The notes under the pieces are model-generated. The model saw nothing but the letters and a program-made list of their open reading frames with translations, did no database searches and was not told the origin of the DNA. From IMG/VR virus record IMGVR_UViG_3300029007_000047: a DNA stretch of 4,140 nucleotides; one strand, given 5' to 3'. The stretch's first letter is position 1. Every line of letters begins with the position of its first letter. Shown here one piece after another: positions 1-4,140 of this stretch. A program made the translations under genes and the position numbers. Origin of the DNA: a virus. Taxonomy: Duplodnaviria; Heunggongvirae; Uroviricota; Caudoviricetes.

Positions 1-273
1 GAAGTCGCTTCCGGTGTGATGAACACGAAAACCAAAGGTAAGGTCTCACTCAACCTGGAAATCGAACCATTTGATGAGAACCGTGTGAAAATCAAACACA
101 AACTCTCATATGTTCGCCCGACTAACCGCGGGAAAATTTCCGAAGAAGACACCACCGAAACGCCGATGTATGTCAATCGCGGTGGTCGCCTGACTATTCT
201 GCAGGAAGACCAGGGACAATTACTGACTCTTGCCGGTGAACCTGACGGAAAACTCCGCGCAGCAGGTCATTAA
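1..273 (+). CDS. Hypothetical phage protein, 5'-partial (reading frame open from window start; stop TAA 271..273)
   Basis: Frame 1 is open from nt 1 to the stop at 271..273. The first in-window starts are GTG 16 and ATG 19, with no convincing Shine-Dalgarno upstream, so the gene most likely begins upstream of the window. It is co-directional with and 65 nt upstream of the yfdQ-like gene, where K-12 CPS-53 has yfdP, but I do not recognise the sequence. Confidence 0.55.
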   Translation, partial: EVASGVMNTKTKGKVSLNLEIEPFDENRVKIKHKLSYVRPTNRGKISEEDTTETPMYVNRGGRLTILQEDQGQLLTLAGEPDGKLRAAGH

Positions 274-338: not shown

Positions 339-1173
339 ATGTCTCAGAACTTAGACGCAACCGCAATTAATCAAATCCATGCCCTTATTTCTGCTCAGGG
401 TGTTAATGAAATTATCAGTAAGATTGGTGCCGATGCTGTGGCATTGCCTGAGAACTTCCGCATTCATGATCTGGAAAAATTTAATTTAAATCGCTTCCGT
501 TTCCGTGGTGCGCTTTCCACTGCCAGCATCGATGACTTTACCCGTTATTCTAAAGATCTTGCAGATGAAGGCACCCGCTGCTTTATCGATGCTGATAATA
601 TGCGTGCCGTCAGTGTGCTTAACCTGGGTACTATTGATGAACCAGGTCACGCAGATAACACCGCCACTCTCAAACTGAAAAAGACAGCACCGTTCTCTGC
701 TCTGTTGTCTGTTAATGGCGAGCGTAACTCCCAGAAATCACTGGCAGAATGGATTGAAGACTGGGCCGACTACCTTGTGGGCTTTGATGCTAATGGTGAC
801 ACCATTCAGGCAACAAAAGCGGCTGCGGCGGTCCGTAAAATCACGATTGAAGCAAACCAGACCGCTGATTTTGAAGATAATGACTTCAGCGGCAAACGCT
901 CCCTGATGGAGTCTGTCGAAGCGAAGACCAAAGACATTATGCCAGTGGCATTTGAATTTAAATGCGTTCCGTTTGAAAGCCTGAAAGAACGTCCGTTTAA
1001 ATTACGCCTCAGCATTATCACTGGCGATCGTCCTGTACTAGTTCTGCGCATTATTCAGCTGGNNNNNNNNNNNNNNNNNNNNNNNNNNNNNNNNNNNNNN
1101 NNNNNNNNNNNNNNNNNNNNNNNNATTCAAAGACAGCAAAGTAGAAACCTTTATTGGTACTTTCACCGCCTGA
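339..1173 (+). CDS. yfdQ: YfdQ-like prophage protein (DUF2303-type); 3' end uncertain because of the N-run
   Basis: ATG at 339 is preceded by GAGG (328..331) with a 7-nt spacer. An uninterrupted 241-codon frame runs to nt 1061; the N-terminus ([21 protein letters not shown]...) matches my recollection of E. coli K-12 CPS-53 YfdQ. The N-run 1063..1124 interrupts the 3' end. After it, a different frame reads [15 protein letters not shown] and stops at TGA 1171..1173, while the original frame would run to 1223 through a GC-rich hairpin. I chose 1173, but the true stop could lie inside the N-run. Confidence 0.75.
1063..1124. other. Run of 62 N (assembly gap or masked sequence)
   Basis: Directly visible as n characters; it removes the 3' portion of the yfdQ-like gene, and the reading frame cannot be carried across it. 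Confidence 0.99.
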
Positions 1174-1185
1174 TTTCATTACTGC

Positions 1186-1207
1186 AAATGCCCCTGCGGG
1201 GGCATTT
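1186..1207 (+). other. Perfect inverted repeat / stem-loop (9-bp stem AAATGCCCC, 4-nt loop TGCG, GGGGCATTT) between the yfdQ-like and yfdR-like genes
   Basis: AAATGCCCC (1186..1194) and GGGGCATTT (1199..1207) are exact reverse complements. No U-tract follows on either strand, so this is not a canonical intrinsic terminator. Confidence 0.5.
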
Positions 1208-1300
1208 ATGGAAACGTAATTGACTCAATAATCGCCGGATGGTGAGGGCTTCCTTTTACCAGAATTCAGCGCGGTGCAGCGCATATACGTGGAGAACAAA

Positions 1301-1876
1301 ATGTCATTTATTAAAACTTTTTCCGGGAAGCATTTTTATTATGACAGGATAAATAAAGACGACATCGTTATTAACGATATCGCGGTTTCTCTTTCAAATA
1401 TCTGTCGCTTTGCAGGACATCTTTCACATTTCTACAGCGTCGCCCAACATGCGGTGCTTTGCAGCCAACTGGTACCGCAGGAATTTGCTTTTGAAGCGTT
1501 AATGCATGATGCAACAGAAGCGTATTGCCAGGACATCCCCGCTCCACTGAAACGCCTTCTTCCTGACTATAAACAGATGGAAGAAAAAATAGACGCCGTA
1601 ATCCGTGAGAAATACGGGTTACCCCCGGTTATGAGTACGCCCGTGAAATATGCCGATCTCATCATGCTGGCAACAGAACGCCGCGATCTCGGGCTAGATG
1701 ATGGCTCTTTCTGGCCTGTGCTAGAAGGTATCCCGGCAACAGATATGTTCAAAGTGATTCCAGTGGCACCAAGCTATGCCTACGGGATGTTTATGGAACG
1801 TTTTAAAGAGCTGCATAAGATANNNNNNNNNNNNNNNNNNAGATACATAAGCAATCCTGACAGCGAAATTAACTAG
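1301..1876 (+). CDS. yfdR: YfdR-like HD-motif phosphohydrolase-family protein; 3' end uncertain because of the N-run
   Basis: ATG at 1301 is preceded by GGAGA (1291..1295) with a 5-nt spacer; the ORF-track start at 1274 is GTG with no SD. A 174-codon clean frame runs to nt 1822. It contains H-x3-H-x6-H (GHLSHFYSVAQHAV) and HD (LMHDATEAY) motifs typical of HD-domain metal-dependent phosphohydrolases. The N-terminus MSFIKTFSGKHFYYD matches my recollection of K-12 YfdR. The N-run 1823..1840 covers the expected C-terminus; the stop TAG at 1874..1876 is valid only if the frame is preserved across the gap. Confidence 0.8.
   Translation: MSFIKTFSGKHFYYDRINKDDIVINDIAVSLSNICRFAGHLSHFYSVAQHAVLCSQLVPQEFAFEALMHDATEAYCQDIPAPLKRLLPDYKQMEEKIDAVIREKYGLPPVMSTPVKYADLIMLATERRDLGLDDGSFWPVLEGIPATDMFKVIPVAPSYAYGMFMERFKELHKIXXXXXXRYISNPDSEIN
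1823..1840. other. Run of 18 N (assembly gap or masked sequence)
   Basis: Directly visible; it lies at the 3' end of the yfdR-like gene. Confidence 0.99.
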
Positions 1877-1915: not shown

Positions 1916-2161
1916 ATGCTTCAAATGCTGACACTTGAGGAATGGGCTGCAGAAAAATTTAGGAGTAATCCTCCAAGTGTGTCCACATTGCGTCGTTATG
2001 CTAAGCAGAATTTATTTTGTCCACCGGCAATGAAACAAGGTCGACTGTGGCGAGTACGTGAGGACGCAGAGTTAGTTGGGGAATTAGTTACTCCAGTAAT
2101 CAAGAAAAGTGATTCTATTATTCTGCAAAGGATTTTAAGCAATGGCAGCCAGACCACGTAA
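1916..2161 (+). CDS. xis: Lambda-type excisionase (Xis)
   Basis: The translation MLQMLTLEEWAAEKFRSNPPSVSTLRRYAKQNLFCPPAMKQGRLW is collinear with the lambda Xis N-terminal region as I recall it (MYLTLQEW...R.LETVRRW....IFPPPVKDGREY). ATG at 1916 is preceded by GAGG (1903..1906); the in-frame ATG at 1901 lacks an SD and ATG 1925 is also possible. Stop TAA 2159..2161. The 3' end overlaps int by 20 nt, the classic xis-int arrangement. Confidence 0.85.
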   Translation: MLQMLTLEEWAAEKFRSNPPSVSTLRRYAKQNLFCPPAMKQGRLWRVREDAELVGELVTPVIKKSDSIILQRILSNGSQTT

Positions 2162-3269
2162 AAATAATGTTTCAGTACCTAACTTGTATCCGCTTTATAG
2201 CAGAAAAGTAAATAAAGTCTATTGGCGATATAAGCATCCAGTGACCGGGAAATTTCATTCGTTGGGCACAAATGAAGCTGAAGCTATTGCTATTGCCACT
2301 GAAGCTAACACTCGTCTGGCTGAGCAAAGAACCCGGCAGGTTCTAGCTATCAGTGATAGGATCGCAACCAGCAAAGGAAAAACTATAACAACATCATCAT
2401 GGTTAGAGCGTTACCAAGCTATTCAGGATGACAGGCTGAAAAGTGGTGATATAAAGCTCAACACCTATAAACAGAAAGCCAAACCAGTATCCTTGCTCAG
2501 GGAACGAGCAGGAATGAAGTTAATTTCATCCGTTGATGTAAGGGATATCGCACAATTGCTTGACGAGTATATCACTGCCGGGCAACCGAGGATGGCGCAA
2601 GTAGTCCGCTCCGTTCTAATTGATGTATTCAAGGAGGCACAACACTATGGGGAGGTCCCTCCTGGTTATAATCCAGCATTAGCGACCAAACAGCCCAGAA
2701 GAAAAATTACCCGACAACGGTTAAGTCTTGAAGAATGGCAAAAAATCTTTGATATCGCAGATGCCAGTCATCGTTATATGGGGAATGCCATGCTGTTAGC
2801 ACTGGTTACCGGTCAGAGGTTAGGTGATATCTCGCGTATGAAATTTAGCGATATTTGGGATGATCATCTTCACGTCATCCAGGAAAAAACCGGGAGCAAA
2901 ATCGCCATCCCGCTTTCCCTGCGCCTCAATGCAATTAACTGGAGTTTACGCGATGTAGTAGCCCGCTGCCGTGACTATGCAGTCAGCCCATACCTTGTAC
3001 ATTTTTTTCGTACGACTTCACAGGCTGAACGTGGCGCGCAGGTTAAAGCCAATACATTGACGATGAATTTCACTAAAGCGAGGGATTTGGCGGGAATTGA
3101 TTGGGGGGATGGAACTCCTGCAACATTCCATGAACAACGGTCTTTATCTGAACGTCTATACAAAGAACAGGGGTTAGACACACAAAAGTTGCTGGGACAT
3201 AAATCACCTAACCAAACAGCTCGATACCATGATGATCGTGGGAAAGATTGGGTTAAAGTAGCCCTCTGA
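2142..3269 (+). CDS. int: Lambda-family tyrosine integrase (site-specific recombinase), apparently intact
   Basis: 375-codon ORF. The N-terminal block (RPRKNNVSVPNLYPLY...WRYKHPVTGK) resembles the lambda Int arm-binding domain. Catalytic-domain blocks match lambda Int: LVTGQRLGDISRMKFSDI (Arg), QEKTGSKIAIP (Lys), TFHEQRSLSERLY (His-x-x-Arg), LLGHKSPNQTARYHDDRG (His and the nucleophile Tyr, codon 3225..3227). Stop TGA 3267..3269. Confidence 0.95.
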   Translation: MAARPRKNNVSVPNLYPLYSRKVNKVYWRYKHPVTGKFHSLGTNEAEAIAIATEANTRLAEQRTRQVLAISDRIATSKGKTITTSSWLERYQAIQDDRLKSGDIKLNTYKQKAKPVSLLRERAGMKLISSVDVRDIAQLLDEYITAGQPRMAQVVRSVLIDVFKEAQHYGEVPPGYNPALATKQPRRKITRQRLSLEEWQKIFDIADASHRYMGNAMLLALVTGQRLGDISRMKFSDIWDDHLHVIQEKTGSKIAIPLSLRLNAINWSLRDVVARCRDYAVSPYLVHFFRTTSQAERGAQVKANTLTMNFTKARDLAGIDWGDGTPATFHEQRSLSERLYKEQGLDTQKLLGHKSPNQTARYHDDRGKDWVKVAL

Positions 3270-3302: not shown

Positions 3303-4140
3303 TTAGCGTACCGCTGGTTCTGCTTGAGCTGGCGGATCATTAGGTATGATCAAATTAAACTGACCACGAGCAACATGTCCGTTTTCGGTCACTTCTAAAT
3401 AGCTAATTCTTACTACCTCACCAGTCACAATAGCGGAGGCAAGCGCCTGTAACTCAACCGGGCGAGCAATATCCTCAGCTACTTTTATAGTAAAACTCTC
3501 TCCATTACTGACCCGGATCACACTTAAGTTTAACTCAGAGCTTGATATTCCGGATCGAGAGAGCCCCTTAATATAAAAGTTATCAAAGCGTTCTGTTCTT
3601 TCTCTGTCAACACTTTGCCTGTTTCGATAATCCTGAAGGGCTGCACCATCATATTGTTGATTTCCGATCTTTACGGACTCAGCATCTGACGCGACCGATT
3701 TAAGCAAAGAGGACTTTCCATCTTCACCATGTGCTTCAATTTCGCGGCTAAGACTAGTTTCTCCCCTACGTTTGACCTCTCTCCCCAACTCAAATGAGCG
3801 TGTCATACCATCTACTACCGTTTGAGTCGTCTGAGTTTGAGCATTTAAGTCTGCGGCATGATCTTGGCTATTTGTGTACAAATAATAGCAACCACCTACC
3901 GTCAAAGCGGTAATCAGTGCTAGCAAAATTGTCATTTTCTGAACGCCAGTCATACCTTCAAACGCTCCCGTGAGGAATGCAAGAAACTGATTAATGGTAC
4001 CTGACCAGTCAGTCTCTGAATCAGTAGAACCTTCCTTTATTTTAAATATAACATCCAAAGACTGTTTATCTTCATTAGTCAGCCTTTGTAAATTTGAGGT
4101 GCCATACTTCGCCAATGCATAAGCACGTTGAAATGACTCA
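3303..4140 (-). CDS. Uncharacterised membrane-anchored protein / candidate lipoprotein, 5' end beyond window (candidate prophage cargo gene)
   Basis: Long - strand ORF with stop TAA (complement of 3303..3305). The frame stays open to the window edge; the ORF-track start at 4115 is a TTG, not an ATG. An internal ATG (complement of 3951..3953) has GGGAG 11 nt upstream and begins MTGVQKMTILLALITALTVGGC, which has the shape of a lipoprotein signal peptide (basic n-region, hydrophobic core, Cys codon at 3888..3890 after VGG). Alternatively this is a signal-anchor of a larger bitopic protein. About 195 residues follow, charged and predicted soluble. I recognise no family. Rough hand counts give 37-39% G+C here versus 43-49% in the neighbouring genes. 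Confidence 0.8.
   Translation of the reverse strand, partial: ESFQRAYALAKYGTSNLQRLTNEDKQSLDVIFKIKEGSTDSETDWSGTINQFLAFLTGAFEGMTGVQKMTILLALITALTVGGCYYLYTNSQDHAADLNAQTQTTQTVVDGMTRSFELGREVKRRGETSLSREIEAHGEDGKSSLLKSVASDAESVKIGNQQYDGAALQDYRNRQSVDRERTERFDNFYIKGLSRSGISSSELNLSVIRVSNGESFTIKVAEDIARPVELQALASAIVTGEVVRISYLEVTENGHVARGQFNLIIPNDPPAQAEPAVR

What the first reader, a model, noticed from the sequence alone, without database searches (positions are those of the whole stretch)
339..1876. YfdQ-like / YfdR-like gene pair immediately upstream of xis: candidate host-takeover module, with YfdR carrying an HD phosphohydrolase motif
Seen in sequence: two co-directional genes sit in the early-left position upstream of xis. 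The second carries H...H...HD motifs typical of HD-domain metal-dependent phosphohydrolases. From memory: the K-12 cryptic prophage CPS-53 carries yfdQ-yfdR-yfdS-yfdT, and I recall a report that YfdR binds DnaA and that overexpressing this cluster inhibits chromosomal replication initiation. Here yfdR abuts xis directly, with no room for yfdS/yfdT homologues, so the module appears shorter. Inference: the pair could act in host replication takeover or nucleotide-pool manipulation; whether the HD motif is catalytically used is open.
Basis: partly seen in the sequence, partly recalled or inferred. Interest (0 to 1): 0.45.

Follow-up and report, generated by a model that had tools for sequence, protein, structure and literature searches.

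The report
Known prophage genes yfdQ and yfdR
The interval holds ordinary, near-identical copies of two already named E. coli prophage genes, yfdQ and the HD-domain phosphatase gene yfdR, but yfdQ's conserved partner across phages is the upstream gene yfdP, not yfdR, and this short version lacks the extra genes the published replication-blocking effect needed.

Summary
Window 339-1172 is yfdQ (DUF2303; 98-99% identical to K-12). Window 1301-1857 is yfdR (about 93% identical to K-12), with all HD metal ligands intact (H50, H69, D70, D119). xisE starts 58 nt after yfdR, so yfdS and yfdT are absent.

The recalled paper exists (Noguchi & Katayama 2016). It reports that yfdQ+yfdR without yfdS or yfdT did not inhibit initiation, and that deleting the cluster gave no phenotype.

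In 184 related phage loci, a yfdP homologue sits directly upstream of yfdQ in 168 of 176 testable cases, across Escherichia-, Vibrio-, Xanthomonas- and Pseudomonas-type phages. yfdR is adjacent only in the enterobacterial group and occurs on its own in many unrelated phages.

So yfdP-yfdQ is a conserved unit of unknown biochemistry, and yfdR is an independently mobile dNMP-type phosphohydrolase. The gene cluster is already described for lambdoid early-left operons. Interest is low. The yfdP-yfdQ pairing is the only lead worth following.

The parts
1..273 (+). yfdP, C-terminal 90 codons (cut by the window start). It is the conserved upstream partner of yfdQ.
   Evidence: Identical to GF8 yfdP (L001 11911-12273). 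Matches phrog_204 at E=1.2e-49. Carries Pfam PF27127 in precomputed annotation. Homologues lie directly upstream of yfdQ in 25 of 25 diverse lineages.
339..1172 (+). yfdQ (DUF2303 / YfdQ family), 274 aa in intact relatives. Interrupted in the window by N-run 1.
   Evidence: Pfam PF10065 at E=2.8e-81. phrog_210 at E=5e-119. 98-99% identical to K-12 YfdQ. A solved homologue exists: PDB 9o7m 'YfdQ Protein', E=1e-43.
1063..1124 (.). N-run 1, an assembly gap: 62 N in place of 52 nt, which creates a false frameshift.
   Evidence: blastn against GF8: window 1062 = L001 13062 and window 1125 = L001 13115.
1187..1206 (+). GC-rich hairpin (AAATGCCCC-TGCG-GGGGCATTT) in the yfdQ-yfdR spacer. It has no T-tract and its function is unknown.
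   Evidence: Sequence and RNA fold. The simple terminator scan did not call it.
1301..1857 (+). yfdR, an HD-domain phosphohydrolase (RefSeq names its relatives 5'-deoxynucleotidase), 178 aa. Metal ligands are H50, H69, D70 and D119. The 3' end is a mosaic junction.
   Evidence: About 92-93% identical to K-12 YfdR. phrog_318 at E=2.8e-106. PDB 2gz4 (Atu1052) at E=3e-13. Ligands are invariant in close and distant homologues. HD/E73/D78 align with YfbR H68-D69/E72/D77. Similarity to SfV-type phages stops at about nt 1810.
1823..1845 (.). N-run 2 (18 N) plus a 5-nt duplicated AGATA. This is an artificial insertion that produces the false C-terminus read by stage 1.
   Evidence: The block ending at 1822 maps to L001 13812. 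The block starting at 1841 maps to L001 13808, a 5-nt overlap.
1916..2161 (+). xisE-type excisionase
   Evidence: Pfam Exc PF07825 at E=1.5e-12. RefSeq annotates it as xisE.
2142..3269 (+). intE-type tyrosine integrase (lambda Arm-binding domain plus catalytic domain). The prophage sits at icd.
   Evidence: Pfam PF09003 at E=2e-37 and PF00589 at E=1.3e-18. icd lies about 1.2 kb beyond int in GF8.

Best explanation
The interval is the distal part of the early-left operon of an E. coli lambdoid prophage integrated at icd, the e14 site. The operon runs cI-like repressor, two small ORFs, yfdP, yfdQ, yfdR, xis, int, and has no exo/bet/gam-type recombination module.

yfdQ and yfdR are orthologues of the CPS-53 genes, but they are not an obligate pair.

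(1) yfdQ is the second gene of a deeply conserved two-gene unit, yfdP-yfdQ. This unit travels together in temperate and virulent phages of Enterobacteria, Vibrio, Xanthomonas, Pseudomonas, Psychrobacter and Acinetobacter, usually among recombination and DNA-metabolism genes. From this conserved adjacency I infer that the two products act together. The only solved homologue was deposited as 36 chains, which suggests YfdQ forms a large homo-oligomer. The biochemical activity is unknown.

(2) yfdR is an independently mobile HD-domain metal-dependent phosphohydrolase. Its conserved function is catalytic. The most likely reaction is hydrolysis of 5'-dNMPs or a related nucleotide early after induction, which would alter nucleotide pools. 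For the E. coli protein, binding to DnaA domain I has been reported, with competition against DnaB and DiaA.

Shown here: gene identities, ligand conservation, gene-order statistics and the absence of yfdS/yfdT.
Taken from the literature: DnaA binding and the genetics of initiation inhibition.
Inferred: a YfdP-YfdQ partnership, catalysis as the selected function of YfdR, and the expectation that this yfdS/T-less version does not by itself block host initiation.
For: - Identity and context.
- The yfdP-yfdQ-yfdR cluster is described as common in lambdoid early-left operons, including phages with no Rec module (PMC12315714). The nearest complete relative, GF8, shows no annotated recombination genes between cI and int.
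- P-Q linkage: the upstream gene in six distant phages is a YfdP homologue (BLASTP E from 1e-12 to 1e-48). P is adjacent in 78/78, 18/18, 4/4 and 68/76 loci of the four lineage groups. R is adjacent in 78/78, 0/20, 0/4 and 2/72. At 75% YfdQ identity, 25 of 25 cluster representatives have P upstream, and 8 of 25 have R anywhere in the locus.
- R independence: 337 phage records carry YfdR-like genes, many in Bacillus, Caulobacter, Rhizobium and Stenotrophomonas phages; YfdQ is in 184 records.
- Catalysis: H50, H69, D70, E73, D78 and D119 are invariant from E. coli to Bacillus phage homologues at 30-40% identity. They align with the YfbR HD/E72/D77 core.
- Oligomer: PDB 9o7m has 36 chains of one YfdQ sequence that is about 94% identical to Xanthomonas phage CP2 ORF37.
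- Genetics: yfdQR alone is insufficient.
Against: - No experiment links YfdP to YfdQ. In K-12, yfdP was dispensable for the multicopy phenotype while yfdQ was required.
- Within enterobacterial lambdoid phages, Q and R are adjacent in every locus examined (78/78). In Pseudomonas-type loci, R lies within 2 kb in 34 of 72. A looser functional tie between Q and R is therefore not excluded.
- According to the citing paper, YfdR has much lower nucleotide affinity than YfbR. dNMPs may not be the physiological substrate.
- The oligomer inference rests only on a chain count. I could not read the entry or any paper on it.
- The AlphaFold models are of moderate quality (pLDDT 75 and 67) and gave no fold match.
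Confidence: 0.6

Rival explanations
1. One reading: YfdQ and YfdR together form a host replication-takeover module. YfdR sequesters DnaA domain I, and YfdQ assists, so that host initiation stops and DnaB is freed for phage replication.
For: - Multicopy yfdQRS or yfdQRT inhibits initiation in vivo, and extracts inhibit it in vitro.
- Both yfdQ and yfdR were genetically required (PMC4776307). A later paper cites the result as established (PMC12122000).
- Q and R are adjacent in all 78 E. coli-type loci.
Against: - yfdQR without yfdS/T did not suppress hda-185. Deleting yfdQRST had no effect. The authors note a possible overexpression artefact.
- yfdS and yfdT are absent here.
- YfdQ occurs without YfdR in Vibrio, Xanthomonas, Psychrobacter and Acinetobacter phages.
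- YfdR-like genes occur in phages of Gram-positive and alpha-proteobacterial hosts, whose DnaA domain I differs.
- The C-terminal 35 residues of this YfdR differ from K-12.
Confidence: 0.15
2. yfdP-yfdQ, with or without yfdR, is a counter-defence cassette. The P-Q assembly would neutralise a host immune system. The HD enzyme would destroy a nucleotide-derived signal or restore pools depleted by defence enzymes.
For: - The genes sit in the early accessory region where anti-defence genes cluster.
- Among the neighbours of P-Q in 25 lineages there is one Acb3 (CBASS inhibitor, E=3e-47) and one Tad2-like protein (E=9e-22), as well as C5 methylases.
- The deposited YfdQ model has many chains. I take that as a possible large oligomer; that such oligomers are typical of sponge-like inhibitors is my own recollection, not tested here.
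Against: - The anti-defence neighbours are single cases among 95 neighbour proteins.
- Recombination and DNA-metabolism neighbours are more frequent.
- There is no sequence or fold similarity to any known anti-defence protein.
- There is no experimental hint.
Confidence: 0.13
3. yfdP-yfdQ is an unrecognised recombination or DNA-repair accessory that stands in for the missing Red/RecET-type module in this 'no Rec module' prophage.
For: - P-Q lies immediately downstream of an exonuclease plus a single-strand annealing protein and/or SSB in several lineages: YqaJ 5, ERF 3-4, RecT 2, Rad52 1, SSB 2.
- This prophage has no annotated Rec genes.
Against: - The authors of PMC12315714 argue against this reading, because the cluster coexists with complete Rec modules such as in ArgO145. 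Phage PA2 has RecT, exonuclease, Gam and SSB as well as P-Q.
- There is no fold similarity to Rad52, RecT, ERF or Gam.
Confidence: 0.1

Closest known systems
CPS-53 (KpLE1) yfdP-yfdQ-yfdR-yfdS-yfdT cluster of E. coli K-12 (Noguchi & Katayama 2016, PMC4776307)
   Same: yfdP, yfdQ and yfdR are orthologous (99%, 98% and 93% identity) and lie in the same order with the same spacing, including the 127-128 nt yfdQ-yfdR spacer.
   Different: yfdS (DUF551) and yfdT are missing here, and yfdR runs straight into xisE-intE. The last 35 or so residues of YfdR differ. The published multicopy phenotype required yfdS or yfdT.
Early-left yfdP/yfdQ/'yfbR' cluster of lambdoid phages LLS, ST64B and SfV, the 'no Rec module' group (PMC12315714)
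   Same: The three-gene cluster is the same, sits in the same operon position, and the phage likewise lacks canonical recombination genes.
   Different: The integration module differs (e14-type xisE/intE at icd), and a different cargo gene lies beyond int. Only 109 of 5,426 complete E. coli genomes share this yfdR-xisE junction.
E. coli YfbR 5'-deoxynucleotidase (PDB 2paq) and Agrobacterium Atu1052 (PDB 2gz4), both HD-domain proteins
   Same: The H...HD...D metal site and the Glu/Asp that follow the HD motif are shared.
   Different: Identity to YfbR is only about 21-23%. The match is below the Pfam YfbR-like cutoff (25.2 against 25.9 bits) and far below the NCBIfam YfbR equivalog cutoff (20.6 against 122). 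YfdR is therefore a separate HD subfamily, closer to Atu1052 (E=3e-13).
Phage T5 pre-early Dmp (deoxynucleoside-5'-monophosphatase)
   Same: It is annotated with the same kind of reaction and is an early phage gene. It is a functional analogue for manipulating nucleotide pools.
   Different: It is not homologous: hhalign probability 0.03, and T5 Dmp has no HD-domain Pfam hit.

Membership tests
YfdQ family / DUF2303 (PF10065) | Profile match above the curated threshold over most of the domain | tested here: met
   273 bits against a cutoff of 26.6, covering profile positions 2-240 of 269 in the part before the N-run. The intact GF8 copy matches phrog_210 end to end.
YfdQ family / DUF2303 (PF10065) | Family-invariant motifs (RFRFRG, NLGTxxPGHADN, AEWxED) | tested here: met
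   All are present in the window translation and invariant in a 25-sequence alignment.
YfdQ family / DUF2303 (PF10065) | A YfdP-family gene immediately upstream (an association found here, not a published criterion) | tested here: met
   Window 1-273 is the yfdP 3' end, 65 nt before yfdQ. P is adjacent in 168 of 176 testable loci.
YfdR-type HD phosphohydrolase (RefSeq '5'-deoxynucleotidase'; phrog_318) | HD-superfamily metal ligands H...HD...D | tested here: met
   H50, H69, D70 and D119 are present and invariant across close and distant homologues.
YfdR-type HD phosphohydrolase (RefSeq '5'-deoxynucleotidase'; phrog_318) | Full-length similarity to K-12 YfdR | tested here: met
   92-93% identity over 176-178 residues. 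phrog_318 at E=2.8e-106.
YfdR-type HD phosphohydrolase (RefSeq '5'-deoxynucleotidase'; phrog_318) | dNMP phosphatase activity | not testable with these tools
   Known only through annotation and through the citation of Zimmerman et al. 2008 in PMC4776307. The primary paper is not in the library.
YfbR 5'-deoxynucleotidase (PF12917 / NCBIfam NF003009 equivalog) | Score above the curated family cutoffs | tested here: not met
   Pfam 25.2 against 25.9 bits. NCBIfam 20.6 against 122 bits. Only the HD core aligns.
yfdQRST initiation-inhibiting gene set (Noguchi & Katayama 2016) | yfdQ and yfdR present | tested here: met
yfdQRST initiation-inhibiting gene set (Noguchi & Katayama 2016) | yfdS (DUF551) or yfdT present, as required for the phenotype | tested here: not met
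   Only 58 nt separate yfdR and xisE. tblastn finds no hit in the window or in the 15 kb early region of GF8.
yfdQRST initiation-inhibiting gene set (Noguchi & Katayama 2016) | YfdR binds DnaA domain I (Phe46) | not testable with these tools
   Published for K-12 YfdR only. This variant differs in its C-terminal 35 or so residues.

The most novel reading that the evidence does not exclude
yfdP-yfdQ is an uncharacterised two-protein early phage system, conserved from lambdoid prophages to virulent Vibrio, Xanthomonas and Acinetobacter phages. It would build a large YfdQ assembly that acts on DNA or on a host factor. In enterobacterial phages it would have recruited the HD enzyme YfdR, so that P-Q-R together reprogram host replication or defeat a defence. 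Neither protein's predicted fold matched a solved structure in the libraries searched.
Probability: 0.2. Interest if true: 0.6.

Novelty: already known. Interest (0 to 1): 0.2.

Why it matters
For this window, very little. The genes are near-identical copies of named and annotated prophage genes present in roughly half of complete E. coli genomes, and the cluster has been described in lambdoid phages.

The useful outcome is a correction of emphasis. Anyone following up the DnaA story should note that the published phenotype needs yfdS or yfdT. The evolutionarily stable unit is yfdP-yfdQ, a widespread pair with no known biochemistry, no fold match in the libraries searched here, and one recently deposited multi-chain structure. 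That pair, not yfdQ-yfdR, is the sensible target for functional work.

Tried and rejected
- Literature searches for 9o7m, and for YfdQ or DUF2303 since 2022, found no paper describing the structure.
- The PADLOC defence models gave no hit for YfdP, YfdQ, YfdR or the cargo ORF.
- I recalled phage T5 Dmp as an HD enzyme. That was rejected: no homology and no HD hit.
- Rfam gave only a sub-threshold sRNA hit inside yfdR (22 against 40 bits, E=0.68). Promoter- and terminator-like sites were not more frequent than in shuffles. The intergenic fold had z=-1.8.
- Apparent YfdP-YfdQ and YfdQ-YfdR 'fusion' proteins in the database (P0011, P0069, P0127, P0280) are near-identical E. coli sequences of odd length. 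I treated them as gene-calling or frameshift artefacts, not as true gene fusions.
- Zimmerman et al. 2008 could not be read.

Full report
**What is in the window.** The 4,140-nt window matches six complete E. coli chromosomes end to end at 98.9-99.4% identity, best to strain GF8. In GF8 the region is the left arm of a lambdoid prophage integrated next to icd, the e14 site. The gene order is: LexA-like cI repressor, a 91-aa ORF, a frameshifted ORF, yfdP, a YfdQ-family gene, an HD-family hydrolase gene, xisE, intE, a 348-aa hypothetical on the opposite strand, then icd. No exo/bet/gam-type genes are annotated between cI and int. That places the prophage with the lambdoid phages that lack a Rec module, described in PMC12315714. 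[quoted passage not shown]

**Checking the observation.** Gene 1 starts at ATG 339. Its first 241 codons hit Pfam DUF2303 at E=2.8e-81 and differ from K-12 YfdQ at only about three positions. Gene 2 starts at ATG 1301, is about 92-93% identical to K-12 YfdR, and matches phrog_318 'deoxyribonucleoside 5' monophosphate phosphatase' at E=2.8e-106.

Both N-runs alter the sequence length. The first (62 N) replaces 52 nt. The second (18 N) is an insertion flanked by a duplicated AGATA. The true gene ends are therefore 1172 for yfdQ and 1857 for yfdR. The tail 'RYISNPDSEIN' and the end coordinate 1876 are artefacts. xisE begins at 1916, so yfdS and yfdT cannot fit. Neither is found in the 15 kb early region of GF8.

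**The HD motif.** H50, H69, D70 and D119 are invariant in 12 enterobacterial YfdR proteins. They are also invariant in an alignment that adds homologues at 32-39% identity from Pseudomonas, Bacillus, Caulobacter, Stenotrophomonas, Rhizobium and Pasteurella phages. E73 and D78 are invariant there as well. Profile and MAFFT alignments place H69-D70/E73/D78 on YfbR H68-D69/E72/D77.

The protein is not a YfbR orthologue. It scores below the Pfam YfbR-like cutoff and far below the NCBIfam equivalog cutoff. Its closest solved relative is Agrobacterium Atu1052, PDB 2gz4. Ligand conservation across such distant hosts argues that catalysis is the selected function. The primary enzymology paper could not be read. 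The citing paper says YfdR's nucleotide affinities are much lower than YfbR's.

[quoted passage not shown] The minimum set was yfdQ + yfdR + (yfdS or yfdT), and yfdP was dispensable. Deleting yfdQRST changed neither initiation nor hydroxyurea sensitivity. The authors note that the effect might be an overexpression artefact. Purified YfdR bound DnaA domain I in a Phe46-dependent way. For a window that lacks yfdS and yfdT, the published genetics therefore predict no initiation block from this pair alone.

**Is yfdQ-yfdR a pair?** I collected 184 viral loci with four scans seeded by E. coli, Vibrio, Xanthomonas and Pseudomonas YfdQ proteins. I scanned their ORFs with HMMs for YfdP, YfdQ and YfdR.

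| Lineage group | YfdP directly upstream of yfdQ | YfdR adjacent downstream |
|---|---|---|
| E. coli-type | 78/78 | 78/78 |
| Vibrio-type | 18/18 | 0/20 |
| Xanthomonas-type | 4/4 | 0/4 |
| Pseudomonas-type | 68/76 | 2/72 (within 2 kb in 34/72) |

After clustering YfdQ at 75% identity, 25 of 25 representatives keep yfdP upstream. Eight of 25 have a yfdR anywhere in the locus. In six annotated phages (pAN, 36E38.1, CP2, Psymv2, Mystique, PA2), the 115-140-aa ORF upstream of yfdQ is a YfdP homologue at BLASTP E from 1e-12 to 1e-48.

Conversely, YfdR-like genes occur in 337 phage records, many from hosts where YfdQ is not seen. YfdQ occurs in 184 records. The stable unit is therefore yfdP-yfdQ, and yfdR is a separately mobile gene that joined it in enterobacterial lambdoid phages.

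What follows yfdR is a mosaic junction. Among 76 untruncated E. coli-type loci, 35 have yfdS+yfdT, 17 have yfdS only, 4 have yfdT only and 20 have neither. The particular yfdR-xisE junction of this window occurs in 109 of 5,426 complete genomes.

**What might yfdP-yfdQ do?** Neighbours in the 25 lineages are mainly recombination and DNA-metabolism genes: YqaJ exonuclease, ERF, RecT, Rad52, SSB, RNase T-like and Rv2179c-like exonucleases, C5 methylases and dNMP kinase. There are single instances of Acb3 and a Tad2-like protein.

PDB holds one YfdQ structure, 9o7m. It has 36 chains of a sequence about 94% identical to Xanthomonas phage CP2 ORF37. No YfdP chain is in the PDB. I found no paper on the entry, and it was not among the listed Foldseek PDB matches.

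AlphaFold models of YfdQ (pLDDT 75) and YfdP (pLDDT 67) gave no significant structural match. There was no PADLOC hit. The biochemical function therefore stays open. A large YfdQ oligomer working with YfdP in DNA metabolism or counter-defence is the best available inference.

**Comparison with known systems and verdict.** The two genes are members of the YfdQ/DUF2303 family and of the YfdR-type HD subfamily. They are not a complete copy of the yfdQRST set that gave the published phenotype. T5 Dmp carries out the annotated reaction in another phage but is not homologous.

Nothing here is new at the level of the finding as written. The genes are named, annotated and widespread, and the cluster is described. 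Interest is 0.2.

Noticed in passing
window 3303-4140, minus strand (full gene is L001 15270-16316, 348 aa): An uncharacterised ORF with one hydrophobic stretch lies between intE and icd, the cargo slot of e14-type prophages. It has no Pfam, NCBIfam or PADLOC hit and matches only phrog_6191 (unknown function). Only 6 of 5,426 complete E. coli genomes carry the whole window including this gene. It is a candidate moron or exclusion gene.
   Followed up: partly
window 1-273 and loci L084-L193: yfdP, cut by the window start, is the gene that is really linked to yfdQ. It lies directly upstream in 168 of 176 testable loci across four phage lineage groups. It has a recent Pfam family (PF27127) that is absent from the local Pfam copy.
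   Followed up: yes
window 1063-1124 and 1823-1845: Both N-runs misrepresent length. The first has 62 N for 52 nt. The second is 18 N plus a 5-nt duplication inserted where the flanks actually overlap. Any ORF read across them is frame-shifted or extended artificially.
   Followed up: yes
window 1187-1206: A perfect 9-bp GC-rich hairpin (AAATGCCCC-TGCG-GGGGCATTT) lies 15 nt after the yfdQ stop. It has no T-tract and the terminator scan did not call it. It may be an RNA-stability or processing element in the yfdQ-yfdR spacer.
   Followed up: partly
window about 1740-1857 (yfdR 3' end): This is a recombination breakpoint. Similarity to SfV-, Stx2c- and K-12-type yfdR ends near nt 1810, and the last 35 or so residues of YfdR differ from K-12. 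The gene downstream of yfdR is highly variable among E. coli prophages: yfdS+yfdT, yfdS only, yfdT only or neither.
   Followed up: yes
PDB 9o7m (relative of window 339-1172): This is a solved 'YfdQ Protein' structure with 36 chains, from a Xanthomonas CP2-like phage sequence. It was not among the listed fold-search matches, and no paper on it was found in the searchable literature. It could reveal the assembly state of the family.
   Followed up: partly
L001 1-15236 (GF8 prophage early and lysis region): There are eight Chi octamers (GCTGGTGG) in 15.2 kb, six of them on one strand, in a prophage with no annotated Rec module. This is reminiscent of the Chi-rich lambdoid phages of PMC12315714. 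I did not test it against expectation.
   Followed up: no
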